64,000 bases of DNA from Proteromonas lacertae. Lineage: Eukaryota. Made by a program: the position numbers and the translations under genes. This document shows positions 11,681 to 57,333 of this stretch, piece after piece. Location of the stretch: the NCBI GenBank assembly GCA_002245135.1, contig NGBS01000005.1, forward strand, positions 62,001-126,000, given 5' to 3'. The notes beneath the pieces were generated by a model. That model was given only the letters and a program-made list of their open reading frames with translations. It searched no databases and had not been told where the DNA came from. Numbering within the stretch: the first letter of the stretch is position 1; every line of letters begins with the position of its first letter.

Positions 11681-11723
<43 letters not shown>

Positions 11724-23649: not shown

Positions 23650-25149
23650 TTACTTAATAAATAGTAATGTAAATGAAACAGCAGTAATCATACACAAAAT
23701 CTGTAATGGAAAGCCAAAAGCTACATAATCCTTATAGTGATATCCTCCTGGGTTATAAACAATCAAATTTGTCTGATAACCAATATGACTCAAAAATGTG
23801 TTTGAAATAGCAAACATCAATATCATAATATTCTGTTTCAACGAATATGACATTTGATCAGATATTTGAACATTAATAACAACAGGAAACATTATTACTG
23901 CAGATCCATAGTTACCAATCAATGCAGATAGGATAACAGTGAATAAATATTCAATACATAACAAGCCATAACTACCAGAATGCTTTCCAAGTGATAAAAT
24001 AAAATTACTTATCAGTGTTGAAACTCCAGTACTTTGTGCTGCTTTTCCTAACCCAAATGTTGAGATTAATGTTAACATTAAGCGATAATTGATGGATGAA
24101 AATGCTTCATCAACTGTCAAACATCTTGTGATAATTAATACTGAGGATGTAAAACAAAAAAAATTAAAAAAACATAAAAAAAAGTTGTAATAATAAAATA
24201 AAAGGATATGCAAATAATGCAGATATAAGAATATTCATAAAATTCAGCACTGGTAATAAAATCATAATTATAAATATAATTATAGTCACAACTCTTTTAA
24301 CAATAATTATCTTCTTTTCTGTAGTATTGAATATACTATTATCAATATTTCTAATCATTCCAAAATGACTACTGTTACTGTATAGTTTAATGAATGATTC
24401 ATTCACATTTAATAACAAGATATCTCCAATCTCAAATATTCTTGAAGAACTAAGATTATTATCATTAATATTATCAGATGGAATAAAAATAGGAGAATCT
24501 CTGCTATACATAGTAAAATTCTTTTTATATAAATTATCCATGTCATTTGTACTTAACTTTACAGCCAATAAATCACAATTATATTCTTTAATCATTATTG
24601 CATTACTCATTACTTTGTTGATTAATGGACAACATTTGTCTAACACAACTTCTACTAATGTCGATCTATTTGATATACCATCCGATTGAGTAACCAATAA
24701 CAGTGAAGGATGAAAACGTAATAAATTGAGTGATTCACCATCTCCTGCAAAATATAAAATATCACGACTCTATATAAAACAATAATATAATATATTGAAA
24801 TACATATAATATTGTTTCATCATATATTCCAACTGATTGTTTCTCTCTCTCTATTTTCATTAATTTTGTGTGATAAGGACACATTAATCCTGACTGTAGT
24901 ATTGTTTGACCATGAATCTTTGAAGTTACTGGAATTGTAAATGGTATAACATATCTATAATACTGTTGATCTTCACTAATTATCTTCTCACTGTTATTTG
25001 GTAATAAGAATTTAGCCATTAATATCATATATATTATAGCAATTATACCAATAAATAATCCAGGTAATGTCATTTCAAACATTGAAAAAGGTTGAATATA
25101 TTGATGTGTTGATTCAATTAGGGATTGAATTAATAAATTATTACTATTA

Positions 25150-25182
<33 letters not shown>

Positions 25183-26271
25183 CCCTGATCCAATTAGACA
25201 GCAACTTCCTCCCAACATTGCAGCATAACTTAATGGCAATAATATATAAGAAGCAGGAATAGAATGCGTTTGAGCCCAATTCTCAATAACAGGTAATAAC
25301 ATAATAACCACAGGTGTATTGTTAATAAACACTGAAAAGATGAATGTAAATATTGATGTTTGTGCAATTGCTACAAATATATTCTTTGGATGGAATAAGA
25401 TTCTTTCTATTAATATAGTCACTATTCCACTCTATTAATTATTATTATTATTATTATATAATGATATATATATATACCTTTTCAACAGCTCTTGCTACAA
25501 TAAATAATACACCAATTGAAAGTATTGAAGGATTACTAAACGCTGAAAATGCATCATCAAAATCAATGATTTTTAAAAACAGCAATAAACAAGTTCCACC
25601 TAACGTAACTATATCATGAGGATAGTTTAAATATAACCCAATTGTGACAATATACTATTTATTATTTATATTATATTACTATATATACCAACACACCCAA
25701 TGTAACATATCCTTTCCAATTCAGTTGATCTAAACATTCAACTACATATGTACCATTTTGAAAAGATGTAATGTTTGTTGCTCTTCCTCCCTATTTGCGT
25801 ATAAATGAGTCTATCTATACATAAGCACATTCTGCATTATGCATTGCCCAGTCATTGTATGTTTTATCTGAAATCTTTTCTTCATACTTTCTTGCTTCAT
25901 TTGTTGATAGAAGAAATGTAAAGAAAAAGGAAAAGAAGACAATTACAGCCATTATAATACACCACTTGTATTCACTTCTATTTTTAATGCAATTATTATT
26001 CAGATAATATACACTTTTAGTATATATTTGTGAACTTTAGTTTGCTCGTGAATAGGTGAATCAAGTTTTGAAAAATCTGAAAATGTCCTCATATGGCTGC
26101 TACTGCTAGGTGATATTAATGCTTTCACTATTTTCAATAAAAATACACAAAATACTCTCTTTCAATGAATTGATTGTAAACCTTCGATTCTGAGTAGGTA
26201 TCATGCCAGCGCTGTTGCTTCTTTCTAAAAACAGTAAGTAATTGACTAATACGTAGTAAATTTTCATCCAT
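23650..26271 (-). CDS. SLC13/DASS-family permease with TrkA-C (RCK_C) domains (SLT/SAC1-like sodium:sulfate cotransporter)
   Basis: 'AFSAFSNP', 'FINNTPVV', 'LLPLSYAAMLGG..LIG', central TrkA-C-like region, 'IGYQTNLIVYNPGGY..D..FG.PL'. The model needs one AT-AC intron. Confidence 0.88.
24149..24209 (-). other. U12-type (minor spliceosome) AT-AC intron, 61 nt
   Basis: 5' end ATATCCTTTT is a perfect U12 donor, followed by a TTTTTAAT branch-like element and a TTTTAC acceptor. Removal gives in-frame 'ISALFASSVLIITRCL'. The local GT-AG option is out of frame. Confidence 0.9.
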
Positions 26272-31769: not shown

Positions 31770-32942
31770 ATGGGTTGTGGGGCAAGTACAGAAAAAATAG
31801 TAGATCCTTTTCATGTGAATCTGACGCATTTCACAATTGAAAGGGTAATTGGTCAAGGTGGTTTTGGTAAAGTAAATGCTTGTATACACAAACCAACGTA
31901 TTATATCTGAATTGTATTATATTCTAGGAGTAAATGGTATGCAATAAAAACCTTGGAAAAACAAACCGTTATAAAAACACAAAATGCCGATATGATCATG
32001 AATGAAAGGAATTTGTTGATGTGTGTCAATAGTCCTTTCCTTGTTAATATGTTTTATTCATTTCAAGATGATGATAACTGTTATATGGTTATGGATCTCT
32101 GTTTAGGTGGAGATTTAAGGTATCAATTAAAACATTCTCCAGATAAACACTTTTCAAATGATCAAGCTAGGTTTTACATAGCTTGTCTGTTAATAGCTTT
32201 AGAATATTTACATAATAACAATATAATTCATAGAGATATAAAGCCAGATAATATGTTATTAGATGCAAATGGTTATATTCGTTTAACCGATTTTGGTATA
32301 TCACAGAAATTGAAAGAAGATGGTTATTGTTATGCTGGTAGTGGTACTAGAGCCTATATGGCTGGCGAAGTATTAAGAAAAGGTCATAGACATAACCGTA
32401 CTTCTGAGTTTTTTTCAGTTGGTGTTGTCGCATATGAATTTCTAAGTGGTAAATGGCCTTACTCGTTTAATGGTCCAACTGGTGCAACAACACAACAAAA
32501 TTTAGATCCAGTAGAAGCAGCCAATAAAATTAGTCATATTATATCACCTGAAGCATTCGATTTTTTAGTTAAAACTTTAGAACCAAATTATCATAAGAGA
32601 TTAGGACATAAACACGGAATTCAGGAGTTAATAGAACATAGTTGGTTTAAAGATTTTGATTGGGAGAATTTCAGACAGAAAGATGAGAGATTAGCACCAT
32701 TTAAACCTGATATAAATAAAGCTAATTGTGATACTGGTCCAAATGATTTGAAAGAAGTTTTTTCAGGTGAAGAAAAATCAAAACCGAAATTATCACCAGA
32801 ACATCAAGCATTATTTGCCAATTATAATTTTAATACTGAAGTTGATGTAGATGCTGATGGTAATCCAGTTTATAAGGCAGGTGCGACTGCTGGAGATGAT
32901 TTAGATGATAGAATAAAAGGTACTGTAACTGTCCATCATTAG
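31770..32942 (+). CDS. AGC-group Ser/Thr kinase, YANK/STK32-like, N-terminal MGCGAS acylation motif
   Basis: GQGGFGKV, YAIK, 'MDLCLGGDLRY', HRDIKPDN, DFG, 'SGTRAYMAGE', 'PFKPDINKANCD'. One intron. Confidence 0.9.
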
Positions 32943-33139: not shown

Positions 33140-34411
33140 TCAGTTTAAATTATCTAATAAATTTTCTTTATTGTTTTTATTTTCTTCTTTTCTTTCTAAA
33201 TATACCATATAATGTAAAAAGAAAGTCAATAACAAGGCTATAGCACAAAATGACATTGAAATCATATAAGCATATTGATTTCCAAATGAATCATTGATTA
33301 TTCCAAGAACTGAATTTACGGATAGTATCATTACTCCTTGACCTGGTAATATACATCCTGTTGCTGTTTCTGCATTGCCTTTATATACTTCGATTATTAT
33401 ACCAATTACACAAGGCCAAAATGTTGAAACAAAATATCCACAACAAGCCAGAAAGTATAATCCTGTTGTTCCTTCTGTATAACTAAATCCTATTAATGAT
33501 AAAATACAAACCATTGTTCCAATAAACTCTAACATAGGGAAGAAACCAACTCTGTCAGTTATAAACCCATTTATTAATCTTGAAATTGTATATATCATAA
33601 AGAAGTATGTCAAATAATTATTACCAGTTTTTGAATCTACATGAAGATATTCAGTTGCATATAAATATCCCCAAGCAAGTGTAGACTTTTCACAAAGAGT
33701 AAATAAACCTAATATAATTGTTAATAACCATGCTCTTGATGAAAAGAATACTTCTTTAGATGTGAGTGTCTTGTCAATTGTTTTTATTTCTTCTGATGGT
33801 TTTGCATTTTCTGGTTTTCTTTCATAACCGGTATCTTTGTCATATGGTATCATTAATGATATAATAAATGATATACCAATTGGAATAAGTATAATTAAAC
33901 TGTATTCTTTATAACACCATGACTTTTGTGTAGTTTGTAATAACTGAATAAATGGAGGACCTGCTAAAGTACCAACTCCATAAAGGCAATTAGATACTGA
34001 TAACATCACTGCAACATATTTTATATATATCGTACTGCCTAGAGAATTTGCAGATAAATCAATAAATGCAAAACCCATAGAAATAATACAATAACTTATT
34101 ACAATAAGAGGAGGTGCATTCATGAAATAAAATCCAAGGTATCCAAGAATGTAACACGTATATGCAAAGAAATATGAATACTTATATCCTAACATTTTAA
34201 TAACAACAGCAGTGACAAATGAAAATGAAATACCAAATACGTTGAACAATGTGAGCATGAGACTGTAAAAAGTGTAGCTAAAACCGTGATAATTTTTAAT
34301 CAATGGTAAAATAACACCATTTGATCCATCCATCATACCTTCAAGAAACAAACCAAGGAAACTACCAACATATTTTGAAAGAAATATTGCTTTATTAGCT
34401 GTAATTTTCAT
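33140..34411 (-). CDS. MFS transporter (FucP-like), intronless
   Basis: About 12 hydrophobic segments, 'D.SAN', 'YGVGTLAGP', 'SRLINGFITDRVG'. Likely start is MKITANK at 34411. Confidence 0.85.
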   Translation of the reverse strand: MKITANKAIFLSKYVGSFLGLFLEGMMDGSNGVILPLIKNYHGFSYTFYSLMLTLFNVFGISFSFVTAVVIKMLGYKYSYFFAYTCYILGYLGFYFMNAPPLIVISYCIISMGFAFIDLSANSLGSTIYIKYVAVMLSVSNCLYGVGTLAGPPFIQLLQTTQKSWCYKEYSLIILIPIGISFIISLMIPYDKDTGYERKPENAKPSEEIKTIDKTLTSKEVFFSSRAWLLTIILGLFTLCEKSTLAWGYLYATEYLHVDSKTGNNYLTYFFMIYTISRLINGFITDRVGFFPMLEFIGTMVCILSLIGFSYTEGTTGLYFLACCGYFVSTFWPCVIGIIIEVYKGNAETATGCILPGQGVMILSVNSVLGIINDSFGNQYAYMISMSFCAIALLLTFFLHYMVYLERKEENKNNKENLLDNLN

Positions 34412-34491
34412 TTTAAAAAATGAAACACAGTTTACTCGAGTCAAACTTATTTTAACAAAAACACAAAAAAAGATATAAATGTATATATACA

Positions 34492-35794
34492 TCAAAATAA
34501 ATAGAAAGATATTAAATTATAAACTATTTTAAATAAAGAGGTAAATATTGATTCAATTGTAACAATATCATCATCTTCTCCGCTATCTCCACCTCCACCA
34601 CCACTTGCTTTAAATGCATCACCTGCAGCTAGAGCAATAGCAATACCAGCTGAAGCACTTATCAGAATAGTAGTTGAAACAACACCTACAAATATTAATC
34701 TACCTCTTCTTCGTTTAGCAATTTGTTTTTCTAAATAATCATTGGCTCTTCTAAGGGTAATTAATGAATCATTTATTTCATATTCTACATGATTTAATAC
34801 TTCTTTCTGTTTTTGTGTATATTCTGCTATTTGTTGGAATAATGAATAGATTTCGGTTATATTCTTTAATAATAACTTCGAATCCTAATTATTAATATAA
34901 TAATAATAATAATACTTCATATTCATTATTAATTCTATTATAAACAGATAGTAAATAATTATTTCCATTATTATCTTTCATTTGTCGAATATTACTGTAA
35001 AAATTCCATAATTCTTCATTTTCATATATCTATTTAAAAAAGAACAATAAAAAAGAATTATTTTTATAATATTTATACTCTTTCCATATCATGAAAAGAT
35101 AATGTAGGATCAATATATAATAAATATTTATTAATTCTACTTCTCATTCTGTTATGTAACAATATTTGACTTCTGAAATAATATTCTGCAGCTTCATTAA
35201 ATCGATGTTGGAGATATTCTGATAAATGAATTCTTTGCCTTAGAAAAGCTGATGATTGAAATACTCTTTTTCTTAATATATTTGTGGATTCATCTATTTC
35301 ATTCATTCTAGACTATTCATATATAACATAATTAATAGATTTCTATACTTTTACATATCTTAATTTTGGATCTGTGTTTTCTACCATTAATTGAAGTTTT
35401 AAAACATATAATGAGTCAAGTGGCGCATTGATTGATAATACTCCTGTTTCAGGAAATATTATTTCTTCTTCTACACACAATTCTTCTTCCATTGAATATA
35501 TTGCTATTGAAGTTTCACTTGCATATTAGTATTCTTAATAAGTGTACAGTATTTCATCAATAACATATCTTATTTCTTGAACTTCAAGATAGAATCTAGT
35601 AAATTCAGTGTATATTTCTTCTTTGTATTCACTATCATATTAAATATAATTATATTAATATTATACTCTACTTTATATAAACTTCTTTCTTTGTTTGGAT
35701 CTGATTCTGGCCTTTCATGATTAGATGTTTGTTGAATTATTTGCTCCATATAATCAGCTAAATCTTGACGTCTGAATTTTCGGTTATAGTCCAT
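34492..35794 (-). CDS. Syntaxin-like Q-SNARE (divergent)
   Basis: Last exon encodes the SNARE helix 'ITEIYSLFQQIAEYTQKQKEVLNHVEYEI...ANDYL', a basic patch KRRRGR and a TM segment. Five introns. Confidence 0.7.
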
Positions 35795-40322: not shown

Positions 40323-40397
40323 TTTAAAATTTAAATTTGAGATAAATGAAATACTATCCGTTTTGTTTCGTCAAATCTCAAACCTATTTGTTTCGTT

Positions 40398-41908
40398 ATG
40401 AATTCTCAAATAACGGACTCAAATGCTGAAGCTCTAAATGAAATGGGGAAGCAAGTACAGGAGATAATGCAGACCCCTCCTGGCAAAAGATCACCAGAAG
40501 ATTGCTTGATAATAGTCAAATGGTTAACAAGGACTGAAAGAGAGCATAGTCCTGATGATAGAAGATGCTTTACATTAGCTCCATTGAAAGTTCTATTGGA
40601 ATTGGCTCAACAAATTACAATTAATGCTTATGAAGCTGGAGAAGTAATATTTCTTCAGAAAGAAGCTGGTGTCACTTATTTTGTTGTAGTTAATGGATGT
40701 GTAGATATTTACGATGTGGATATACCAAGACAAATACCAGAGGATTTAAACCAAGATTACATGGATATAAAATTTCAAGCAGAACTTAATGGAGAGAAAA
40801 AAATGCCAGAAAAGAATCCAGATGCTCCTTGTAGAGTAATTGGCAATTTAGTCCAGAAGGGTAAGTACTTAGCATCAGTTACAGCAGGATGTTCGTTAGG
40901 AGATATTGCCTTATCTTCTAATGAAGGTGCAAGAACTGCTTCAGCAGTAGCAGTTCAACAAACTCATTTAATTGCTATACACAAAACTATATTTGATCCA
41001 CTACTAAGGAAATACAGTTTATTAAATAAAGAGTTTGAAAAAAGAATGGAATTCTGCTCTCATATCGATATTTTGTCAGATTGGGGAAGAGATCGTTTAT
41101 GTCATATAGCCTATTGGTTAGAAGAAGCAGAATATCCTAAAGGATCGTATATAATCAGTCAAAGTAGACCAACAGCTCCAGATCAACTTAATTTTGTAAA
41201 AGAAGGGGAAGTTGAAGTTGTCTGTAGATTAGGGTTAAAAACAATTGAATTAGCTATAAGAGGTACTGCCAATATAATAGGTGAAGGATATGTGTTGAAT
41301 GAGAAATCTGTCAATTTTTCAGTTATTGCAAAATCTGATGTAAAAACTTACTGCTTAAAAGAAGCACATATAAAACAATTTTTAAAAATATGTAAAGGAA
41401 CCAATACAATCCCTAAATTACATAAATTATTCACAGATCGTGAAGCATTTCGACAAGCCAGAATTAATCACTTTACACAACATGCTGATTTAGTAGATAA
41501 TCTATTACATCCGTCTCCAGTGAAACCAAAACGACCAACTCGATTATCTCCAATTAGACATCCTTCTTTGTCTCCAACACAGAAAATAATGAATGTATAT
41601 ATTATATATTGCTATCATTATTTATATAGAATTCATTGTTTGATATCCCATCACCTACAAAAGAAGGATCTTATTGGAAGAATGCTATCTCTCCATCTGT
41701 TAGGATATATGCTAGTCCAAGTGTAAAGAAACTATTGCCACAAAAAGTTCCAACCAAAAATCTATTCAAAAGGCCAATGACTACTCCGTTGAAGATTAAG
41801 CAGAAAGATCCATATGAAACAATTCATGAAGACTTGATTAATACACTCACTCCTCAAGGATCTCAACAATTGTTTAAGACAAGAGTGAATGCAAGAAGAT
41901 GGACCTAA
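40398..41908 (+). CDS. Tandem cyclic-nucleotide-binding domain protein
   Basis: First domain 'GEVIFLQ..G..YFVVVNGCVDI', 'GCSLGDIAL..RTASA'; second domain 'KGSYII..FVKEGEVEV..IIGE..FSVIA'. Confidence 0.85.
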
Positions 41909-42019: not shown

Positions 42020-43409
42020 TTAAAAGATTATGTAGTTAAGTTTCCGCATCAAGTCCGAATTCTTAATTTCCTCCAGTATTTTCAGCCTTATAACAGAGAA
42101 TTGCATTTGCTGTTGTGGATTTAGGTAAATGCTTAATTTCTTTAATGTTACTAGTGTTTGTATTAATATATAAGAATTGTGTAAGTTTGATAATCTAATA
42201 CAATAATTGAATATTGATGATATATATTGAACTGAATATTTTGGTGAAATTTCAATAAAATCGTTGAACTATTCACAATAATTACTATATAAAATTATAT
42301 ATTTATACAATCTTCGCTATTCCCACTTGTACTGATGCACATCTATTTAATTTTGTTTTGAGTAAATGTGATATTATTATAGAAACATATTCAGGTTGAT
42401 AATGTATTACTTTGTGAAGATAGATCAATATATTGGTGAAATAAAACTATATAAAATATAAATATTAATATATAAATACTAATCTTGCATCATTTAAAAA
42501 TAACTTCAATATTGTCTTAATCATATCAATATTATATATCCGCAAATCAGTACAGAATTTAATAAGATGATTATAATTATGTATTTGATATGTACTATTC
42601 TTTATACAATCAGTTTCTTCATTGAGTTTCACAGCAATACTTTCGACTATTGTTCTTTTGAGATATGGATATCTTTCATAAAGGTTCATTAGATCATTCA
42701 TCCGATTAACAATTGCTACTTGAGATGAATAATTACCATTCTATTTATAGAATAAAAAAAAGATAAAATACATTTACGATTGTATATACATCAAATGAAG
42801 TGGGATAATGTTCATGACAACACGTTTCACGCAGAGAATGACCTTTCTTACCTGACCATTATCAATTTAATCACTTCATCAATAGTTGCATATTGATATA
42901 AAGCAGGATCTGGAGGAAATGATTTAGTTATCTCTTCAAAACAATGTGAAACTACTGATTTAACATATTGCACTGCATTTGAAGGTATGGCTCTATTACT
43001 GAAGTATGAGTATCTACAGAATTAATTCTTATATGTGATACAGTGTAGATATTAATATATCTTTATCCTCAATTGTCCAATAACAAGAATAATCAAATGT
43101 TTTTGGTGGAATAGGTGCATTTTCTGATTTATTATTGAGATTTGGTAAGAATGTCATCGGCAGTCTATCTGATACATCTTGCTCTGTATTTATAGCTGCA
43201 TAAAGGAGTAAATAAGTTTCAAATTGGGTTGGATTAGAATTACACCTTTTTACTGAAGCAGGAATCAACAATTCATCATCGTAAGATTTCTTTCTTTTGT
43301 TTGATGGTATTCTGAGAGTTGGAATTGAAGGAGTTGAGACAGAATTGAGTTGAGCATTACATGAGGGGAGCGATAGCGAGTTCATTCCAGATCTTGACAT
43401 AACAATCAT
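42020..43409 (-). CDS. Highly divergent PP2A B56 (B') regulatory-subunit-like protein; possibly frameshifted
   Basis: Weak motif order matches B56: 'FDYS..EDKDI..TL', 'TKSFPP', 'LMNLYERY..LKRTI', 'IISHLLK'. There is an unexplained +1 frame break at ~42848-42862, and the 3' end is ambiguous. Confidence 0.5.
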
Positions 43410-43687
43410 ATAAATCTATTTTATAACTACTATTACAGGAAGAAAAAAAGAATATTGAAGTTGATGAATGACGCGCTATGCAAAAACACATTTATTTTTG
43501 ATAGATTTAATCGATTAGAAACCAAAATTATGGCAATCATACATATGTATTGTTTTAATATGATGAACTGAGTTTAAAAAAACCAAAAAATCATTAAAAA
43601 AATCATAGATACAATACTGATATAGTAGAAAACTTAATAATTTATATAACTATACACAGCATTTATAAATAACAATAACTCTTATCT

Positions 43688-46600
43688 CTATAAGTTAGGC
43701 ACCTCATCCACTTTTTCTAATGGCTTCTCTAATCTTGGAGTCCTTTGAGCGCTAGCTGTGCCTAAAAATGAGGTTCGTATTTTACCAGGACTTGGACTTG
43801 TAATTTCTTTTAATAGAGATTTTCGTAAATTAGTTGGACTCACTGCTCCGGTAGCTCCTCTCTGTGATCTATTTAATGGGCTTGTTACAGCACCATCTAT
43901 CAACGAAGACTTTCGTGAGTTTGGAATACTATTCAATCCTTTAACCAACGGTTGAATTTGTAGTGGAACAGGTGTTGGATGAACAGATGCTGGACTTGAG
44001 CCATAGTTTCCTATTGCTCTAGAGTTACCATTGTTCATTTCAGGTGTTTCTGGATTATCAGTATCACCATCACCACCATCTTTTCCTCCATCTTCTGATG
44101 AACTATCTTCATCATCTCCTTCATTCACATGAGTACAATACAATAAGGAGACTTTATTACCAAATTGAAGAAATGCAACAACAAACACACCACCATTTAT
44201 TCCTATCGTTCTAATAAAGGCTAATGCAGTAGGTTGATCACTTAAAGCATAATCAATACCAAGCATTGCTAGAGACCAAATGCAAAGTATAACAATTGTG
44301 GAGATTAAACTTAAGGATTCATTAAACTCAGCAACAACATTTCTAATCTTATATGCGACTTGAACACCCCATGCTGCTAATGCCAATATTCCTAATGCTT
44401 GTGCAATTCTATTAATAAATATTATATACATCTATATATATACAAAAAGTATCTTTCAGAATCACAATTTCTAACATAAACATCTGTTACAAAGTCACTC
44501 AATTTTATATTCAATTCTTGATGGTGATAGACTGGATCTACAAAAGTCCATATTAATAAATAAATAATTTGAATTGCTATAACACCACTAATAACCATTA
44601 GCAATCTTAAATTGCCTATTCTCATCTTATTCAGTTGTTTGTTATTCATCAATTTGTGAATTCTCCACACTTTCATAACGAATGTTGAAAGTAATAAATC
44701 TAAACTAATTAAAATAAACCATTTTCTTATAGCACAAGTAAAATCATTTTCAGGGTAAATTATCATAATCATACTACAACTAGCCAATAAGAATAATGCA
44801 AACATAGCAATTACACTAAATAAATAACTTGTATTTCTAACAATAGGATTATGTCTATTCCTTGTAAAAACATAGAAAACTGACAATAAATATAAAACTA
44901 CAACTACATACACTAGATAACTAGCAATAATTGAATCAGGATATGTATACATCTGAACTAATTTTCCTAAATCACAATCAACTTGTGGATTAGTATAAAC
45001 TAATCCATTAGTTGGATATTCAACACTATCAAAACCATTTTGACTTATACTCTTTACAAAATAAGTTGTTACTAAAATACCACTTTTATCAATCTTTCCT
45101 AAACCATTTGGAATTGCCATACTATATTCTTTCAACGCTTGATTAATATAATTTGCATTTGGGAATGAATTACCAGTATAATCAGTCATCACATTATTAA
45201 TTGCATTTGCTAGTAAGAATAAAGATGAATAGACTAATGAATTAATTTCAGAATCACCTTCATTATTTCCAAATATACTATGAGCTTCTGTCTTAAATAC
45301 AGTACCTTCTGTATTGTCTTCACTGCTTGATAATGTGTCAATACACATATGTCCGTTGAAAAAAGTATATTGTTCTGGATTCCAGTAGAATGGGTTACAT
45401 TCTCTAAATATAAATACGAAATTACTATTATCTAACAATCTCTTATATTTCATTATAAGTTCTCGAAGTTCAAACTCTTTTTTACCTTGTACTAAAACAT
45501 ATACTGCAATATGACTTAGTTTTGTTGATAGTAATGTTGGTAAGATTGTTGGTATTGATTCCATTCCTTCTTCAGTAGTGATGTTAATTGATGTTAATAA
45601 TGGACTTTTATTCTTTACAAACAGTAATTTAAATTCTTCAAGAATATTACTATAGAATAAAATAAACATTTATATATATATATACTCTACTTCATAATCA
45701 TAAAGTATCACTGAATCAGTAAATGTTAAATTCATAACATATTGATTAGCTATATCAAACCTTTGATAATAATCACTTTGGAAATAAAAGAAATTTCTTT
45801 TACATACACTTGTATCATCTAATCCAAAATAGAAGTAAGGTATTGCTGTATTCTCAGTCAATTTCTCTACAATTTGTAATAAAAACGGTTGTCTTCCACC
45901 AACTATTGTTATTGGGTCATAATCCTTAATTGCTTTAGTTAAATCCTTTTCAATTTCTTCTTCGTTACTATAAACATTATAGAAGGACAATTCATATCCT
46001 TTCAATTTAAAATCAGTCTCTGTTTTTGATACAAATAGATCAATTGTTCTAGCTATGCTTGTTTCTTCATTCACTGTATCTGGACCAATAATATGCACAA
46101 CTACCACATTCTTCACAATAGTATTCTCTTTAGCCATCGGATTAAACTCACAAATTTCAACACCAGTTAAATTATAGTAATCAGCATAAAATGATGAATG
46201 GGACAATGAATTTGGACTGTAATATAACATAGCACCTAAATAGGTGAATTTCACCACGAATAATCTTCTAGCTAACGATCTACTTTTATCCAACACTATT
46301 CTACCAGCCGCACTTTCAACAACAACTTCTGATATTGCATTTATATTTTCTATAACATCTGTTGTTCTTGTGTAGGATATTGTATTGTGAATGTAATAAA
46401 CAGATGTATAAGAAGATTCACTGACAGAATCAGCTGTAATTCCTATTCCAAAATGATTTAAAAGACTACTCATAAACTTATTTGCATTTATTGGAACATC
46501 AATATCAACATTATCATCCTTCATGTTAATTCCATCAACAAATGAACCTGATGCAAAATGTCCATACAAATAATCAATTAATGAAAAATCAGTAAAAAAC

Positions 46601-49600
46601 TCATGTGGTGGATCAGTAAACAATATATGAATATCATCAATATTAAATCCTTCATCCTTGAAAGTCATTAATAAATCAATATCAAATGCACCACCTACAG
46701 TACTAATTATTACTCCTTTTCTTATCTTCACCATTTCACTGTTTGTCCAAAACTGAGTAAAATCAGTCCCATCCTTATCTACTTCTGTTAGTGATAATAC
46801 ATCTATTCCATAATACTCTAATGTAGGTTTCATGTATTTGGTAGTAATCAAATACGATTCTGAGGTTTTATCTTTATCACATATTAAATAAACTATTGGT
46901 TTGATTTGTAAAACTGCACCAACTAAAAACTTGGATAACTGCGGACCAGTCATTTCTGTTGAAATCAAGTTCTTTACACAATATGCTTCTGTTAAAGTTG
47001 AAGATGAGAAAAACACTTGATCAGTATTATTTAAGAATGTCAATATAGTTTTCATTAAGACAGTAGTAGTAAAACCAACTATATATATATTCTTATTCAT
47101 TCTAATTGATGTTTGGAATTCTAAAAATGAATCTTGATTATCTAAATTGTAAAAACTAACAGCAACATAATAACCCAATGTTCCACCTCCATTATTTATT
47201 TCTTCTTGTGCTAATATTACTCCTTCAATTACACTTATTGATTTTTGCCTGTTTTTATCATAATGAAGAATTACATTAAGGTTATATTTATTCTTTGGTA
47301 ATTTCTTGCTAATTGATGTCTTTGTTATTGTACAAACATAATATGTGGCTTCATTTGTAAGGTATTTATATGGATAAGGAGTTAATAAATCAGAGGATGT
47401 GAATGTTAAATAAATTTCAGTTCCCATATGCATAGATATTCTAAAATAAAACATCATATAATTTGAACTTGATAATTTCAAAACACCTTCAGGAGTTACT
47501 ATTTCATTCTCTCTATATGCTTCAAACAATTCAACATAAGAAAATGTCTTGCATTTTTCAACCATTCGATCAAATGTCAATGCAATTGAATATAATTTTG
47601 ATACTACACTATTTGGCTTTTTATGTAACCATTCTTGCACTCTACTGACCATTAATTGATTTTCTTCATTTTCAATTTGACTTGAATATGTACTGAATAC
47701 ATCATAAGTATAATTACCTTCCATTTCTTCTAAATCAAAAGCAACAAAATGATATATTGATAAATAATAATCATCAAATGTATCTAATAAATTATGAAAT
47801 GCAGAATCTAAACCAAAATATAAAACTGCACTATACTCATCACCAAGATAATCTTTTATCTTTTGTGATATTTCATCAACATTACTATGTGTTATATTAC
47901 CAATAATTGAAACATTTTGAAATAAATTAGATAAATAGATATTGGAATATACTACATGAGAATATTGTTGTGGCAATCCTCCTACAACTGCAAATTTCTT
48001 AAAATTCTTTGTTAAAAACATTTGATAAGCTCTTTCATAAAAGCTAGGCTCAACATCAAAATAAATAATATTTGAATCACATGATTCACCTTCAATCGAT
48101 GTATATACAAAGATAGGAATTTTAGCTTTTTGTGTTGTTGATTTTATAGTTGATAAACATGATGGAATTGCGCCATAGATTATTCCTATTAATCTTGACT
48201 TTATTTGCTCAACTGAGTCAAACAATCTTTCACCACATGTCTCCTCATCACTTTGATCATCGAAATATTGAATTACTATACGCTTTCCTAATATACCTCC
48301 ATCTCTATTGGTTATTTGAATCATTTGTGACAATACAATCGGAATATCAACAGTCTCAGATGCATATATACCTGTAGTGCTTGAACAGATTAATAAAAAT
48401 CCATAATCTTGTGGTATTGGATCACTTGAACCAGTAGTTACATCACATTTACGACCCATTGAATCAATACTATACCACAAAAATGCTACTGGTTGATAAT
48501 CTTGTACAGTTGCTACATTGGTGATAAACTTTCTTTCTGAATTCATATATCCAACATTTATATGATGTGAAGAATAATAATTTGGTAATATTTCTATTTC
48601 TCCATTTGGTGATTCTATTCTTAAATTAACCAAGTTCTCTCTCAAATCAAGTCTATCAATTGAATTACCTTTTTCTACAGCTGCTCTTATATATTCTACA
48701 GCTAAATAAGAATTATAAGCATCTTCAGATAAAAAAGCAGTCAATGAATGTCTTTGCCATGTCTGTAATAACTTAATATTTAATGGATTTGTTGAGAATA
48801 AATCATAACTTATAAAGAAATAGGTATTTTCAAAACTTGGATTTGTCATTGTATCTTTAGTATCTGGAACTAAACCAAAGAAGTAATATTTAGTCAAATC
48901 GATATGTAAATTACTTCTTATCTGCTCTAACAACTGTAAGTGATAATTTGTAGTTAGTAATGAGAATATAAGTCCTTTTTCTGGTATATAATTAAATACA
49001 GTTCTAGCTACATTTAATGACGAAATAGATGCATCATTGCCCATTATTATTCTAATATCTGTTACAAATGGCTTAAATTGCTCCAGCAATATATCTTTAA
49101 AAACATCAGAAATACCAGTTTCACCTTCTATAATATACATATAAGGTATTGCATCACTTAATAAAACATAATTCAAAATCGGATCACAGAATTGATTCAT
49201 AGTTGAACCAACCTGTACAACATCTAAATTACATTCATTACCTAACGTTTTAGCTGGGGTAAAAAATAAAAGATCAGAATTTGCTCTTTTTAATGCTGAA
49301 GATACCATCATTCTAGCTTCTTCAGATTTTCCTCCCATTATTGCAATCATTTTTGGATCTCTAATAAATTCATTCACTATTGATGGTATTAAACTGTCAG
49401 ATTTAGTATTTCTTAATACTGGAATTACATATATTCCATCTAAAAGTCCACCTTCTTCATTGATTGTTGTTATTGCTGAGATTGCAGACATTCCACTAAT
49501 TAATTCATATTCTGAATTTGTACCTGTTACATCATATAATAACCCTATTTTTACATAATCTGGTTTATAATCACCTCCCTTTTTCCAATCACATATTCTA

Positions 49601-52600
49601 ACTTCATTTTCATCAAATATATTATACACAAATACTTTATAATTCAATTTCATATTTGGATATACATTTGTCAAAACATATCTGTTACTACTTCTATCTA
49701 ATTCAACTTTTCTTATTGTTCCTCTTCCATATAAATAATGACTTAAATCCATAATTAAATTTCCAGAAATACTATCAAATTCTAATCCTTCTCCTGCTGT
49801 TATTACAGACATTAAATCAAATGATTCTGCTTTTCTTGCAGAGTTAAGCCACAATTCAAATGCATTATATGTATTTGCATGTAATTCATTAAATGATTCT
49901 TTATAAGTCATCTTCTTCTTTATACTCTCATAAAAATAATAATACTTTGATGATTTATCTGGTCTTACATAATTCAACCATATATAATGGCCTACAGTTG
50001 TATAACCATAACCACTTCTATTAATATCATTTTCATTCATTCCTGTAGCTATTATTGTCATTGTATTTCTAATTACTCCATAACAACCCTTAAACAATTC
50101 CATTGTTAAACTCCCTTTTAACATGGATAAAATAATACCATTAGTTCCTAGTGAATTGGCTATAATCTTAGCAACTCTCTGAAAATCAGTGTTTTGTGTA
50201 TATACATAATATTTACCAACTAATTTAATACCAAATATTTCAAACCTTTCTTGTAACATTTCTACTTCAAATTTTGTTTTCTCAGAATTCATAACTACAA
50301 TATATACTTTAGTAGCTGTGAAATTTGTTCTTAATAAATAAGGTAAACTTAAAAAATCATTTGTCATCATACCAGTATAAAAAACTTTTCTAGAACACTC
50401 ATGTCCTTCTGTATTACCTGGATAATACAATACCATTTGTCGACTTTCAATTATTGATAAAGCTTTTATTCTTAAAGTAGAATCTGTCAAACCAAATATA
50501 AATTTAATACCATGTGATTTAAATTTATCAAGAATAGCTGGTATTGTATTAACATCACTTTCATCATTAGTAACAATTGGATTTATATAATAACCATTAA
50601 CACCACCATTCTCATTGATAATAAAAGCTAGACTAGTAATAACAGCAGCTAATCCTTTACTAGAATCAGCTAATTCACCTGTAAACGATTGAATAACTCC
50701 AATTTTGATATATTCTTTCTCATAGGATGGATTTGATAATGTCAAATCACATATCTTGTATTTTTCTTCGTTGTATAGTAAAAAGAATGGTTCTGGACGC
50801 CATGAAACTGATATTTGTGTTATATCATATGATAGCTTCATTCCATCTCTGGTAATTTGTACTGCATAAACTGGACGACTCATATAATGACTATTATCAA
50901 ATGTAATTGTACCTTCAAAATCATTTAATTCATAACCAATTAGATCCTTTTTGAAATTCTGAATATTTGGATTTGAATATGTTTTATATACATAAATAAT
51001 AGCTTTCATAGCTTCAGCTGCTAATAAGACATTTGGAGGAGTATAATATGATAATGACATATAAGGAACAGCATTTTTAAGATATTCTGGATTAGTTACA
51101 GCAGGAGCATAAGTAGTTGTTATAAAATAATGATTCTTCATGAGATTTACTTCTATCATACCTAATGTGAATGAGAAAAATGTTAAGATTTTAACATCAC
51201 TATTATGACCATTATATGCTTTATGATACTTCTTTGATAAATCTTCTGGTAACAAATCAATTATAAACCCAATATCTTGTGTAAACTGTAATTGCTTAAC
51301 TATTACTATATTATAAGTACTTGAATCATCAGTCAGTTTATCTATTTTATAAGAAATACTTAATTCATCACATAATTCAACAATAAGATTGAGATAATTA
51401 CTCACATTCATACTATCACTATGTATTATTGACACTTTATTTCCGAATTTTTCAAATGCCCAAAATAGAGTTGGTCTTAAATGTTGTATTGGTGTTACAT
51501 CCATATACCATCTATTTAAATAATAGATAAATAATAATAATTATTATTATATATATACATTGAACTACTACAAGCACTTCTTAAAGAGGGTCTTATATAA
51601 AAGAATACCATGTCAATAGAAACTAAAGTATTATCCATTTTCTCCAAACTAGTTAAAGGACAATCACAAATGCATAACATAAATCCTAAAAAACTATATC
51701 TGACTAATATTGTTGAAGCTTCAAGTTCATTGGTAGGACAATTTGCCCTTTTTATTATACCTTGATAATGGATTGTTTCTGGTAAATTGCCACTTCCAAG
51801 TATTTCATTCAAATAACCAATAATAGCTAAATTTCTAGCTACATTAGCAGGTTCATTCAATATTAATATTTTCATTTGTGGATAAGTCCCATTAGCCAAT
51901 ATTGACTGATCACTCCAGTCACAATATACATCAGTATTACCAAACATTGGATAAATATAATTGGAATTCTCATTAGTAATCATTGGATCAAAGCCATTAC
52001 CATTATGTACCATTACACCAGTTATCATTGAGATATATATTTTTCTTTCAACATTATAATTTGGTCTTAGAGTGATTTGTCCAGATGGACTATTCAATTG
52101 TATATTTATTAACATTCTTTGGATATCTTCCATATTATTATTATTATTTGCAGACACAAACGCTTTTTCTATTAATTTCATTCCTTCATACATTGCCATT
52201 GTTACTCCTGTAACAAGATAACTTGGACCAAATGTTTGTTCTACATCTTGAATGAAATGAACTGATTCTTGATTGGTTAATTTGTAGAAATATGAATCTA
52301 ATGCCATATTAGTACCTTCTAATCTATCAAATACTTTAATTATATCTTTTAAATATGGAGAAATAATTATAGTACCATATACTTTACCTAAATTAGTTCT
52401 GTCTATACTTTCCAATAACTCCAAAGTAGTTTCTTGTGTTAATGCTACCACAGTACAGGACATTCTACTACAATCTGTTTTATTCAATTCTATTAAACCT
52501 TCATCAATTGCCGCACCTAATTCTGTTGTTTCATTCTTTCTTATTTTTATTATTTCTCTATTAAAATCATCTTTTGAATATTTCTCTAAACTTTCAATCA

Positions 52601-55408
52601 TTTCATCTTCTTCTCTACTTCCTGAACTAACAGTAACTATATTAGAACCTTGAACACCTGATACTTCAATCATTCTTGGAAATATCTGTGAAGCCATTAA
52701 GCCAGTATGAATAACATTAGAATAGCATTTACTACCAACATTGTAATGAGGATTGATTAAAATTGCGTTCTTCTTAACTATATTTGGAATAACTTCATCT
52801 AACATAGTTGAATTATCAGAACCAATAAAGTATCTAACTCCACTATTCAAACTAGCAATAACTTTCTTTGGAATAACAAATGCTGGTGCTGTTGCATATT
52901 CCAACTTCAACATAAAACCATTAAATCCTCCTTTTTGGTTAATCAAAGAAACAGCTAGTCTTAATTGACTGAGATAGTTTCTTGATTGTATGTTATGAAA
53001 TGTATAAATACCAAATATCTTTATAAAAATAGTATCATAAATTTGATTATCTAATTTGGTTAAATCACATACTGTATTATTATCATAAGCTAATGGAATA
53101 ATTGCATAATCAGTTGCAAATACTTCTTTATATTGTTTTGTATCATTATTATACGATTCTATTACAACATTCATTGTACTATATCCATTTACATCTATTG
53201 AATATGGACCTTGCACAAAGGACATATGTCTTTTGTATATATTATCGTTGATTGTATTTATATCTAATGAATTAGTCAATACTACAGTAGTATTCCATAT
53301 CTTTAGAGCAGCATAAGCCAATCCCATAAATCCATATATTGGTTGATGCAAATCAGTTTCATTAAATCTATAATAATTTGTAATTACATCTCTCATTTCA
53401 TTCATTACATCAGATTCTTTACTTTCAGCAAAGGGTGTTAATAAATAAATTTTCTTCATCATTTCTGTATCTTTGTATTTATCAAATACAGGCTCATATG
53501 TATTTATAAAGAATAATCTTATATTCTTATACACATCAGGTGTATTATTCAAATATTCTAAAAATTTGATAGTATCATCGAAATTTAAAGACATTACAAC
53601 CAATGATCCATAATCTGCAGTTGTTAATTCATCTGTTATATTATCCAATGGATATTTATACTCTTTATTCATTGTTCCTTGGTCATTTAACGAAACTACA
53701 TACAAATCTGCAATTAATTTATCTTCTGCAGTATCTGAATAAAACACAAATGTATAATTTCTTCCTACTTCTTGTGCCATATCAAATGCTAAAAGATGAA
53801 TCTCACTAATATGTTCATGAGAAAATCCTAAATTATATCTATATTTCTGACATTCATAACCACCATTATTGTGCAAATTAAACCATAATAATCCACTATT
53901 TCCAAAATCACTTAACATTTTCATTCTTGAAGAATATGGAATATCATATAACACTACACCTGCATCATATTTACTAGTTAACATTGTAATGTTATTCTTT
54001 ATATAAGTATAATCACTCAAACTATCAATATAATAACTAATTACTGTTTTATCTAATACACCACCACCTTTATTAATTTCATGAATATAACTACTAATTA
54101 TCCTAGAATAATAAATACCTACATTTTCATATTCTCCTGAATAGGGAACTATAATAATCACCATAACATAACTGCCGTTAATAATACCATTCACAGGTGA
54201 GGAAGTCCAATCACAATCACCTACAGGTAAATTACCAATTCTATCCCAAGGTGAAATATAATAGAAATCATCAAAATCATCAAATTTCTTGATTATTAAA
54301 TCACCACCATTTGCTGTACTTCTTAATTTATATAAATACTGTGTATTTCTAATTACATTACCTTTTATTAATGATGATATTGATATTGGAGATTCAAATG
54401 GTTTAATATATAAATTATTTAATATAATTGATATATTAAACGTCTCATATCTTTTAGCTACTGAAATGTATGTATCAAATAATGTATAACTATATTAAAT
54501 AAATAAATAAATATATATCTATACACTAAATATAAATATTGAAATGGTGGTGAATAAGAAGTGCCTCCAGGTGGTATTACACTACTAATCAATTCATGCA
54601 TTGCAGTTGCTTTATCACTTATATATTCTGGACTTATCAATGTAATAACTAAAGAGTCTTCATAATTATTACCACTATCTGCATCTCCTAATTCTAAATT
54701 TGCATAACCAACTGCTTCTACCTTTATATTATTGTTTGTTTTTAAAGTCTTTATTGCTGCATAAATTTCTGGATTCTTCAATGGACTTGTACTTATAATA
54801 ATTAGAATATCATCCTCAGTTATTCCTGTTATATCAGCAGTTAAACTACTTGATGAAGTATCAATTTCTTTTACTACTTTACATTTCTGGGTTTGACATA
54901 CATAACCTAAAACTTGCTTGATTTTAGTACTTTCTTCACGTTCTGATACAATCACAATCTTCTTCCATATTGAAGTTAAGTACAGAAGAGATCGACTGTA
55001 ATAAATACCTCCATCTTGTACATTCACTACATTCCTAGAACATGCATTCTCTTGAGTAGAAGCACAAAATATATAAACACCTTTTTTATACATATATTCA
55101 TCCAATGTCATTCCATCAATATTTGATATGCCATAACAAAAACCAAATATTATATCCACCTTATCAACCTCTACTAATTTTTTGATTACATCTTTGTTAC
55201 CATCAAAACTATAGGTATAACTATCTCCTTTTATTGCAATCTGCCTATCTGCGTGTTCTGAGTTCCAGTTGTCTACATACTTCTGAAATACAGCCTTAGA
55301 AGTTTTTGTTTTAGTAGGATCTGGATAATGCATAAACCCTATATTTAATGTTTCTCCATAAAAACATTGTATTGATATTATAAAAACCAAAATAATGTAT
55401 AACGACAT
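43688..55408 (-). CDS. Giant class C (7tm_3) GPCR-like receptor with nine tandem UrtA/AmiC-type periplasmic-binding (Venus flytrap) domains, ~3,855 aa
   Basis: Signal peptide at ATG 55408. Introns 54490-54524, 51512-51558, 45650-45685 and 44409-44443 join all ORFs into 3,856 codons. The repeats carry 'IN..GG..G', 'E-C' and 'CD[WL]' motifs. The 7TM region has 'P.VR..S..F', 'C..R.W', 'KVWRI', 'IWT.VDP', 'EFNES' and 'FGNK'. Confidence 0.9.
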
Positions 55409-55652: not shown

Positions 55653-57333
55653 TTAACCCCACCAACTTGGCCTTCCATAAAGTTGATTTTTGTTACTTCT
55701 CGTAGGCACAGCACGACCATATAAATTCTGTTGAGGTACTACAGGAGGTGCATCATATTTTGGTTTAGGTGGTTGATAATTATCATAATTTCTATTATTA
55801 GGTTTTCTTTGAGGTGAAAAAGCTGTTGGTTTTTCTAACATTCTTGCTATTTGACCTTTTGGTATTGGATCATCATTTTGTTGTTGTTGTTGTTGTTGTT
55901 GTTGTCTTTGCTGTTGTTGAACTGGTGGTGTTCTATCGTGATAAGAATAACGATTACGATTAGCACCATAACGATCATATCCTTGAGGTTGTTGTTGTAC
56001 TGGTTGAGGTGTTGGTCTATCATAATCACTACTATTATCATTACCATATAAATGACGAGGGAATTGTCTCTGTTGTTGTTGTGTTGGATGTAAATACATT
56101 TTATTATCACGTGGTGGTGGTTTTGGTGGTAAATGTTGTTGTTCCTCTTCTTGATAATGATGATGATGATGATGAGATGGTGGTGCAACTGGTGGTAATG
56201 ATGGAGTAGCATGTCCTCTTGGTATATCTTCTAATATTGGATCTAGACTTGGTGTCATTCTTTCTTTCTCTTTTCTTAATATTTCTTGACGATGTTCGGA
56301 TATTGGCCAAGCTTTAGGTGACATTGGTCGAGAATCTGGATAGCAGGGTTTAGGTAAATCATTAGTTAGTCTTTGAATATTACGAGGTACTTGAATTGTG
56401 TGTAATAAATCTACTTCATCTTCTTCAATATGAACTGGAACAACATTTTTGTATTTTTGAATTATTGGTGATTTTAATATCAATGCTACTGGTGGTCTAC
56501 TTGCTGGATTTGTTACTAATAATTGTTGGATCATCTTAGTCATGTCTTGACTGTATCTGGAGGGGATTCTTGGATATATACCACACTGGATTTTTCTACC
56601 TAGTTCTTCCATACTATTACCTACAAATGGTGGACGTAATGAAGCCATTTCGTATAAAATACATCCCAATGACCAAATATCACATTTACTGTCATATGCT
56701 CGATTCTTCCATATTTCTGGTGACATATAGTATGGAGTACCAATTTGCGTTTTTACTAAACCGTCATTCTTCACTAATTTTGATACATTGAAATCACCCA
56801 GTTTAATACCTCCATCGGAAGTCATGAAACAATTGGCTGGCTTAATATCTCTATGTAATATGTGATTATCATGAAGATAATGTAAACCTTCACAAATTTG
56901 AATAAAATAAGACCAAATTCTATTATTGGTATAGATAATGATTTATATATACTTTGCTTCTTCTAAAAATGATCCAGTCTTTTTACACTTTTCTATAATA
57001 CCCGCTAGATCACCTCTGTCACAGAATTCCATAACTATACACAAAGAAGCACCCTATTCACCATAAAACAATTATTTAATACGTCTACGAATGATTCTAA
57101 GTATCCTATAATGTTTGTATGACGTAAAGAAGCCATAAGTCTAATTTCGTTAACTGCATCCTGTAGCTCTCTTGCTGATAAAGATCTTATATTAATTTTT
57201 TTCATAGCATAAGCTAAGTTATCTGATTTACGTATAACCTATTTGAGTTAGTTTTGAGTAGATATACTTTATAAACTGCTCCAAAAGCTCCCTTCCCTAG
57301 AGCTTTCTCTATTCGAAAATTGTTAGTACTCAT
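55653..57333 (-). CDS. NIMA-related kinase (NEK, CNK2-like)
   Basis: GKGAFGAV, YAMKK, 'NEIRLMASL', HRDIKPAN, 'LGDFNVSK', 'TQIGTPYYMSPEIW', post-kinase 'LLHTIQVPRN...LPKPCY'. Three introns. Confidence 0.93.

What the first reader, a model, noticed from the sequence alone, without database searches (positions are those of the whole stretch)
43688..55408. Giant class C GPCR with a chain of nine Venus-flytrap ligand-binding domains
Seen in sequence: the ORFs join through four canonical 35-47 nt introns into one ~3,855-aa protein. It has a signal peptide, then nine ~375-390-aa repeats (approx. 55354-54200, 54170-53060, 53030-51915, 51880-50743, 50712-49585, 49557-48440, 48405-47330, 47286-46145, 46116-44968). 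Each repeat has a mid-domain Cys and ends in a C-[DTE]-hydrophobic motif. A 7TM region (~44937-44140) carries class C hallmarks (KVWR in TM3, FNES before TM6, F-x-x-K at TM7), followed by a disordered tail. Established: animal class C receptors (mGluR, GABA-B, CaSR) carry a single flytrap domain per chain. Here the last flytrap joins TM1 directly, GABA-B style, with no nine-cysteine domain. Inference: this is a multi-ligand 'antenna' chemoreceptor, or a long tethered sensor; I do not recognise the architecture as described.
Basis: partly seen in the sequence, partly recalled or inferred. Interest (0 to 1): 0.93.

Follow-up and report, generated by a model that had tools for sequence, protein, structure and literature searches.

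The report
Receptor with nine urea-binder flytraps
A likely single-celled eukaryote encodes a predicted 3,855-residue surface receptor whose outer part is nine head-to-tail copies of a bacterial urea-binding protein on a GABA-B-like seven-helix core; distant relatives keep intact urea pockets and would likely sense urea, while this copy has lost them and likely senses another small molecule through only one or a few of its nine domains.

Summary
Observation confirmed. Four GT-AG introns (35, 47, 36, 35 nt) join five ORFs into one 3,855-aa protein: signal peptide, nine repeats, class C 7TM (Pfam 7tm_3; best solved match GABA-B2), disordered tail. The flytraps are not the animal ANF type. They derive from UrtA, the urea ABC-transporter binding protein, and specifically the cysteine-tail form seen in cyanobacterial structures (R5 model vs 8hic: Z 43, rmsd 2.9 A, whole chain). 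The layout is a family: 18 of 157 hits carry tandem UrtA-like domains plus a 7TM. Three unnamed relatives hold nine domains in one ORF; a chytrid has two and Capsaspora about four. In GC-richer relatives 23 of 36 repeats keep all eight urea-contact residues; this protein keeps 0-3 per repeat. Among its AT-rich relatives repeats group by distance from the membrane; only R5 keeps a partial pocket, and the membrane-proximal repeat is always degenerate. So 'nine different ligands' is doubtful; an ancestral multi-site urea sensor, here retuned, fits better. No transcript, ligand or G-protein was tested.

The parts
43688..55408 (-). Whole gene, five exons, 3,855 aa predicted
   Evidence: relatives with single ORFs of the same layout
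55355..55408 (-). Predicted signal peptide (aa 1-18)
   Evidence: hydropathy; no dedicated predictor run
54189..55354 (-). R1, UrtA-derived flytrap, most diverged; holds intron 1
   Evidence: 52 bits vs shuffles <=5.2
54490..54524 (-). Intron 1, 35 nt
   Evidence: orthologue P0024 has a 13-residue intron-like insertion at this exact site
53046..54182 (-). R2
   Evidence: Peripla_BP_5 30.2 bits; 141 bits
51900..53039 (-). R3
   Evidence: Peripla_BP_5 54.6 bits; 133 bits
50728..51890 (-). R4; holds intron 2
   Evidence: 121 bits
51512..51558 (-). Intron 2, 47 nt
   Evidence: orthologue P0009 ends in read-through at this site; P0002 and P0015 align across it without a gap
49570..50721 (-). R5, closest to UrtA; keeps Ser/Tyr/Glu of the pocket; best candidate for a live binding site
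48424..49566 (-). R6
   Evidence: Peripla_BP_5 64.5 bits; modelled with R5
47311..48417 (-). R7
   Evidence: Peripla_BP_5 44.6 bits
46129..47298 (-). R8
   Evidence: Peripla_BP_5 30.7 bits
44953..46125 (-). R9, membrane-proximal degenerate flytrap (inferred coupling module); holds intron 3
   Evidence: 85 bits; position-1 group in tree
45650..45685 (-). Intron 3, 36 nt
   Evidence: about 10 of 23 relatives' ORF ends inspected stop in read-through here (by eye); nine relatives without it align across
44146..44931 (-). Class C-type 7TM (aa ~3454-3703): Cys3519/Cys3609, KVWR, FNES, FGNK; holds intron 4
44409..44443 (-). Intron 4, 35 nt
   Evidence: P0003 and P0004 end in read-through here, P0015 and others align across
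43691..44134 (-). Cytoplasmic tail, 147 aa, acidic then Ser/Pro-rich, 29 Ser/Thr

Best explanation
This is a class C-type seven-helix receptor whose outer part is nine fused copies of the bacterial urea-binding protein UrtA, likely descended from a multi-site urea sensor and likely retuned here so that only one or a few domains (R5 first) bind a small polar ligand other than urea. Shown: the gene layout, UrtA ancestry and fold, the 7TM class, intact urea pockets in distant relatives, lost pockets here, and fixed identity of each position among AT-rich relatives. Inferred: each copy's UrtA tail is pinned by a Cys-Cys bond and runs within a few residues into the next copy, making a stiff chain; the always-degenerate last domain (R9) binds nothing and couples the chain to TM1; closure of a sensing domain would be passed down the chain and switch the 7TM, which would act on a heterotrimeric G protein as animal class C receptors do. 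The other domains would serve as a spacer and lever of set length, holding the sensor clear of the cell coat.
For: R5 best solved matches are UrtA (E 2e-24 to 1e-22), then AmiC; no animal receptor at E<=0.001. TIGR03407 UrtA is the top NCBIfam family for all 6 of 9 pieces with any hit. AF2 R5-R6 model pLDDT 77, pTM 0.74; Z 43.2, rmsd 2.9 A, 378 residues against 8hic, covering 37-431 of that chain to its C-terminal end; GABA-B Z 32. Relatives' linkers are the UrtA tail itself; tail Cys to next mid Cys is 114-122 residues in all eight junctions. Urea residues from PMC10392092: 23 of 36 repeats in GC-richer relatives keep 8 of 8; window 0-3; 0 of 65 AT-rich repeats reach 7. Membrane-proximal repeat keeps 1-2 of 8 in P0001, P0164, P0065, P0036. 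Position tree: 10 changes (least possible 8) vs shuffled mean 49.8, 0 of 200 as low; window R4-R9 each score best on their own position's profile, 6 of 6. Ser+Tyr/Phe+Glu kept in 7 of 10 position-5 repeats vs 1 of 57 at the other five positions. 7TM best match GABA-B2, E 3e-10; ionic-lock motifs and both Cys kept.
Against: No ligand, transcript, or G protein was tested; no genome is held. Position-5 pocket conservation is weak as a whole (0.52; 5% of random 8-column sets reach it, six positions tried), and R5 has lost Trp120, Tyr190, Asn246 equivalents. TM7 lacks the FxPK proline, as do several relatives. The AF2 alignment held UrtA-like rows, so the fold match is not independent of the sequence match; the last third of R6 is low-confidence; pTM only hints at a fixed R5-R6 angle and I could not inspect coordinates or the disulfide. 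No known receptor passes a signal through four or more flytraps in series (recalled). Pockets at positions 1 and 4 vary more than background, which also fits ligand diversification.
Confidence: 0.45

Rival explanations
1. Multi-ligand antenna: most of the nine domains are live pockets, each retuned to a different solute, and the 7TM sums them.
For: Repeats are only 13-19% alike yet each position has kept its identity across many relatives; pocket columns at positions 4 and 1 vary more than background (0.3% and 2.5% of random sets as low, uncorrected), as expected if paralogues diversify ligands. All keep the fold core and the mid Cys.
Against: Outside position 5 no pocket residue set is shared within a position. 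Nine-domain relatives carry one and the same pocket in 5-8 domains, so the array arose for repeated binding of one ligand, not for variety. Coupling of distal domains to TM1 is unexplained.
Confidence: 0.25
2. Ligand-free stalk: in this lineage all pockets are dead and the ectodomain is a long glycosylated rod for adhesion, touch sensing or surface variation; the 7TM signals on force or contact, or not through G proteins.
For: No repeat keeps more than 3 of 8 urea residues; 25 N-glycosylation sequons outside the membrane; 37 diverged AT-rich tandem proteins among 157 hits suggest an expanded, fast-changing family; TM7 Pro lost.
Against: The Ser-Tyr-Glu set is kept only at position 5, in 7 of 10; KxxR, FNES and the TM3-ECL2 cysteines are kept in this protein; order and number of domains look fixed, unlike a simple spacer.
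Confidence: 0.22
3. Mis-joined model: the five ORFs are separate genes or a decayed gene.
For: No transcript was seen; splice sites are predicted.
Against: Four consensus introns restore frame with no stop in 11.6 kb; breaks fall inside domains; P0164 (3,909 aa), P0163 (4,080 aa) and P0001 (3,745 aa) hold nine flytraps and 7tm_3 in one called product; orthologue pieces at 68-70% identity share intron sites 1 and 2.
Confidence: 0.05

Closest known systems
GABA-B receptor (class C GPCR)
   Same: Best solved match of TM1-4 (E 3e-10); type-I flytrap joined straight to TM1, no nine-cysteine domain.
   Different: One ANF-type flytrap per chain; here nine UrtA-type; TM7 Pro absent here.
UrtA of Prochlorococcus/Synechococcus (8hic, 7s6e, 7s6f; TIGR03407) and AmiC
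   Same: Fold over the whole chain (Z 43), the EC motif and the CDW tail.
   Different: Soluble transporter subunit, one domain; here fused nine times to a 7TM, and the urea residues are lost (0-3 of 8).
Non-animal Glutamate-family GPCRs with bacterial binding domains (Dictyostelium Bmp, chytrid OpuAC/SBP, gut-fungal SBP type II; '/Peripla_BP//7tm_3/' in de Mendoza 2014 supplement)
   Same: Bacterial solute-binding domain plus 7tm_3 (passages of PMC3251606, PMC3971589, PMC5168858).
   Different: The passages seen describe no tandem array and no urea-binder origin; figures could not be viewed.
Capsaspora CAOG_05347 (XP_004347032.2) and Phlyctochytrium KAJ3101170.1
   Same: Same family: UrtA-like flytraps in tandem plus 7tm_3.
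   Different: About four and two domains; both annotated only as hypothetical or family-3 GPCR.
Trypanosome receptor adenylate cyclases; Bordetella BvgS
   Same: Two flytraps in series outside a membrane signalling domain (PMC6027212 passages; BvgS recalled, paper not held).
   Different: Two domains, single-pass membrane anchor, cyclase or kinase output.

Membership tests
Class C / Glutamate GPCR | 7tm_3 domain above Pfam cut-off | tested here: met
   88.5 bits vs 33.5 on exon 4 (profile 10-172); exon 5 adds 173-248 at E 2e-5
Class C / Glutamate GPCR | Signal peptide, large outer N-terminus, seven helices | tested here: met
   hydropathy only
Class C / Glutamate GPCR | TM3 Cys and ECL2 Cys; TM3 KxxR; FNE before TM6 (motifs recalled, and seen in the GABA-B2 alignment) | tested here: met
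   C3519, C3609, KVWR, FNES
Class C / Glutamate GPCR | TM7 FxPK proline | tested here: not met
   FGNK here; Pro also absent in P0005, P0015, P0018, P0039, P0164; present in P0001, P0035, P0036, P0065, P0163, P0169. A motif, not a requirement for 7tm_3 membership.
Class C / Glutamate GPCR | Works as a dimer | not testable with these tools
   needs biochemistry or structure
Class C / Glutamate GPCR | Activates a heterotrimeric G protein | not testable with these tools
   no genome held; three recalled G-alpha motifs absent from the 64-kb window only
mGluR / CaSR / T1R | One ANF domain plus NCD3G | tested here: not met
   ANF only E 0.055 on R7; no NCD3G
GABA-B subfamily | Single ANF flytrap on TM1 | tested here: not met
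   nine Peripla_BP_5-type domains
UrtA (TIGR03407) | Score above 492.75 bits | tested here: not met
   best 135 bits, R5
UrtA (TIGR03407) | Eight urea-contact residues (W120, S122, Y141, Q144, E146, Y190, N246, S274) | tested here: not met
   0-3 of 8 per repeat; met in 23 of 36 repeats of GC-richer relatives
UrtA (TIGR03407) | Type-I two-lobe fold with UrtA tail | tested here: met
   R5 only: Z 43.2, rmsd 2.9 A, 378 aligned; R6 largely modelled; other repeats by profile only

The most novel reading that the evidence does not exclude
An unrecognised, ancient family of microbial-eukaryote class C receptors was built from a cyanobacterial-type urea-binding protein, amplified to a chain of nine. 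Members with intact pockets are urea-sensing GPCRs that count occupancy over up to eight equal sites and relay it mechanically down a rigid, disulfide-pinned chain to the 7TM; this lineage expanded the nine-slot scaffold into a large chemoreceptor repertoire with position-specific roles.
Probability: 0.3. Interest if true: 0.88.

Novelty: new variant of a known kind. Interest (0 to 1): 0.72.

Why it matters
Class C activation is understood as one flytrap per chain closing within a dimer. A chain of nine, with a dead membrane-proximal domain, needs a different way to reach the helices, and the two-domain chytrid member gives a small system in which to test it. It also shows a separate recruitment of a bacterial binding protein onto the class C 7TM, with a predictable ligand (urea or a small amide) for relatives with intact pockets: a direct handle on how protists and zoosporic fungi sense nitrogen sources, and a possible scaffold for multi-site biosensors.

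Tried and rejected
Sequencing runs: none was listed for 43700-53600, so no reads were laid. Word-based homologue searches with window pieces found nothing, although relatives are in that collection: the filter is too coarse here. Single-sequence AF2 of R5-R7 failed (pLDDT 32). A two-row flytrap+7TM alignment was poor and not used. Dimer prediction for the membrane-proximal domain of P0015: no answer, score 0.00, alignment not used by the tool. Metagenome scans found no locus; the genome scan gave one actinobacterial UrtA locus; the plasmid search gave UrtA from many phyla at 42-48% and did not name a donor. ESM Atlas: only single-flytrap 7tm_3 clusters of 700-950 aa; small clusters are not searched. 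Positional match between GC-richer and AT-rich arrays: none, so whether nine is ancestral or reached twice is open. Host lineage: not determined; a gut stramenopile (Blastocystis/Proteromonas) was a recalled guess; the TGTTTGTT motif count was inconclusive (12 vs 6.1 expected, 3 of 100 shuffles as high); three housekeeping ORFs were not in the collection. Rows dropped: repeats with envelopes of 280 aa or less (including the ninth of P0163) were left out. The 43 'single-domain' rows are unnamed and include at least one eukaryote fragment (P0070). Earlier scan notes: none on this thing.
Full report
1. Observation. Five minus-strand ORFs lie head to tail between 55417 and 43688. At each junction one short, almost GC-free GTATA...TAG intron restores frame (35, 47, 36, 35 nt); 10 of 12 other junctions tested in the window show the same kind of candidate. 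The joined CDS is 11,568 nt and gives 3,855 aa with one final stop. It has an N-terminal hydrophobic stretch, nine repeats of 369-390 aa that are 13-19% identical, seven hydrophobic segments at aa 3454-3696, and a 147-aa acidic, Ser/Pro-rich tail. Six repeats pass the Pfam Peripla_BP_5 cut-off; R4, R1 and R9, scanned as exon pieces, do not. A profile built from 154 repeats of relatives, leaving out the window and two orthologue pieces, scores all nine at 52-235 bits against at most 14.6 in 200 shuffles each. No transcript was available. Homology supports the splice sites: orthologue piece P0024 (68% identical) has a 13-residue intron-like insertion exactly at intron 1; P0009 (70%) ends in read-through at intron 2; about 10 of 23 ORF ends inspected stop at the intron 3 site (by eye) and two at the intron 4 site, while relatives lacking those introns align straight across.

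2. The membrane part. Exon 4 matches 7tm_3 at 88.5 bits and exon 5 supplies the rest of the profile. The best solved match of TM1-4 is GABA-B2 (E 3e-10), then mGluR and CaSR. The TM3 and ECL2 cysteines, KVWR and FNES are kept; the TM7 proline is not, here or in five of the eleven relatives whose TM7 is present. The last flytrap ends 15 residues before TM1, with no NCD3G.

3. The flytraps are UrtA, not ANF. R5 finds only urea- and amide-binding proteins and one other bacterial binding protein among solved structures (7 hits). TIGR03407 UrtA is the top NCBIfam family for the 6 of 9 pieces with a hit, all far below its cut-off. An AF2 model of R5-R6 from a 53-row alignment (pLDDT 77, pTM 0.74) matches cyanobacterial UrtA best (Foldseek; Z 43.2, rmsd 2.9 A, residues 1-387 onto 37-431 of 8hic; GABA-B Z 32). 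The alignment held UrtA-like rows, so this is not independent of the sequence result. Among 94 motif matches in the other hits the two cysteines co-occur (both 9, first only 9, second only 1, neither 75; not corrected for kinship), which suggests a disulfide; the UrtA paper's text does not mention one. In relatives the linker is simply the UrtA C-terminal tail followed by a few residues and the next first strand. Eighteen intact repeats from receptor-type proteins form one group with two unnamed fragments (SH-aLRT 99), inside a cysteine-tail group (93) that holds a near-copy of Synechococcus UrtA. Sampling is unnamed and biased and no topology test was run, so a cyanobacterial donor is a lead only.

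4. It is a family. A repeat profile against 1.84 billion representatives gave 3,177 hits at E<=0.001; 150 were listed, and 7 more came. Of these 157, 48 have adjacent repeats, 37 of them with AT-rich composition like the window; 18 have a 7TM, and all 18 are tandem proteins (Pfam 7tm_3 on all 18, 17 above cut-off). P0164 (3,909 aa) and P0163 (4,080 aa) run from a signal peptide through nine flytraps to a 7TM in one called product; P0001 (3,745 aa, start cut) has nine. These three are unnamed; I call them eukaryotic from their architecture. Named members: Phlyctochytrium bullatum KAJ3101170.1, two domains; Capsaspora CAOG_05347, about four. A Pfiesteria protein has four such domains on a different membrane part. 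The window's host is not determined: 24-32% GC, short introns, BBS5 and CFAP77 genes point to a ciliated or flagellated microbial eukaryote.

5. Pockets. I mapped the eight conserved urea-contact residues of PMC10392092 (passages) by motif onto the repeat alignment. In GC-richer relatives 23 of 36 repeats keep all eight; the membrane-proximal repeat keeps 1-2 in each of P0001, P0164, P0065, P0036. The window's repeats keep 0-3, and none of 65 AT-rich repeats keeps more than 4. In the AT-rich group repeats cluster by distance from the membrane, not by protein: 10 changes against a minimum of 8 and a shuffled mean of 49.8 (0 of 200; long branches, quick tree), and window R4-R9 each score best on their own position's profile. 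So the array was fixed, slot by slot, before the family spread. Pocket columns are at or below background conservation at positions 1-4 and 6; position 5 (R5) keeps Ser, Tyr/Phe and Glu together in 7 of 10 against 1 of 57 elsewhere, with Gln144 mostly replaced by Asp, Glu or Asn, though the overall pocket score there is borderline (5% of random sets). GC-richer arrays show no such positional match to the AT-rich ones.

6. Mechanism. Best reading (0.45): an ancestral receptor with several equal urea sites and a dead coupling domain next to the membrane; in this lineage the chain is kept as a stiff scaffold, R5 is the likeliest live pocket for a non-urea polar ligand, and closure is passed down the pinned chain to the 7TM and a G protein. 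Layout, ancestry, pocket loss and positional identity are shown; stiffness, disulfide, ligand, relay and G-protein output are inferred. Rivals: nine different ligands (0.25), ligand-free adhesive or mechanosensory stalk (0.22), mis-joined model (0.05). That the gene is real and of this architecture I put near 0.93.

7. What is in print. Ten full-text searches listed no paper describing a tandem UrtA-type class C receptor; most subscription papers are outside that library. Krishnan 2012 (PMC3251606; passages, section 20, supplement hit) holds CAOG_05347 in its dataset and gives 1,667 as the longest N-terminus, which fits that protein's 7TM start at 1664-1670, but the text read says nothing of repeats. 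de Mendoza 2014 (PMC3971589; passages, two of three supplements) lists '/Peripla_BP//7tm_3/' as an architecture without copy numbers. Seppala 2016 (PMC5168858; passages) describes type II binding domains on gut-fungal class C receptors. The 2025 eLife survey (PMC12716839; passages, one supplement file) has no occurrence of 'periplasmic', 'urea' or 'tandem' in its main text; its Supplementary file 12 and all figures were not seen and may bear on the Capsaspora member. Trypanosome cyclases have two flytraps (PMC6027212, passages); an Entamoeba flytrap protein is GPI-anchored (PMC12965686, abstract); PMC8687355 (passages) adds nothing on repeats.

8. Verdict. Real, ordinary in its 7TM class, unusual in its ectodomain: a new variant of class C receptor, with relatives already deposited but, as far as these searches reach, not described. 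Interest 0.72.

Noticed in passing
window 22820-23476 (-) and 12971-13949 (+): BBS5 (Pfam BBL5, E 1e-88) and an EF-hand plus CFAP77 gene: ciliary genes, so the host likely has or recently had a flagellum.
   Followed up: partly
window 84-9445 (+): Chain of long ORFs (239-1,235 aa) with no Pfam hit; by eye VPS13-like (recalled, untested).
   Followed up: no
window 55653-57238 (-): Protein kinase, NEK-like by eye, ending 244 bases upstream of the receptor's ATG on the same strand.
   Followed up: no
window 40350-41726 (+), 31911-32942 (+): A two-domain cNMP-binding protein and an AGC-like kinase lie within 12 kb downstream; no evidence of a link to the receptor.
   Followed up: no
window 17774-19423 (+), 10284-12391 (-), 23650-25193 (-), 33140-34516 (-): ETF-ubiquinone oxidoreductase, glutamyl-tRNA synthetase with GST-like N-terminus, SLC13/CitMHS-like transporter, MFS transporter.
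   Followed up: no
window 42020-43415 (-): Downstream gene in pieces with no Pfam match.
   Followed up: no
P0165, P0168: The same UrtA-type domains on other membrane parts: Pfiesteria protein with intact/degenerate pairs and Ephrin_rec_like repeats, no 7tm_3; an unnamed protein with a TRP-like membrane part. The module is shuffled between receptors.
   Followed up: partly
P0027, P0029, P0066, P0106: Unnamed, bacterial-looking fusions: two UrtA domains flanking HEAT or NACHT-related parts and a membrane segment; arginase-UrtA; UrtA-glutaminase.
   Followed up: no
P0058, P0059, P0096: AT-rich single UrtA-like proteins of ~535 aa with a 120-135 residue N-terminal extension, one long-branched group beside the receptor repeats; origin unknown.
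   Followed up: no
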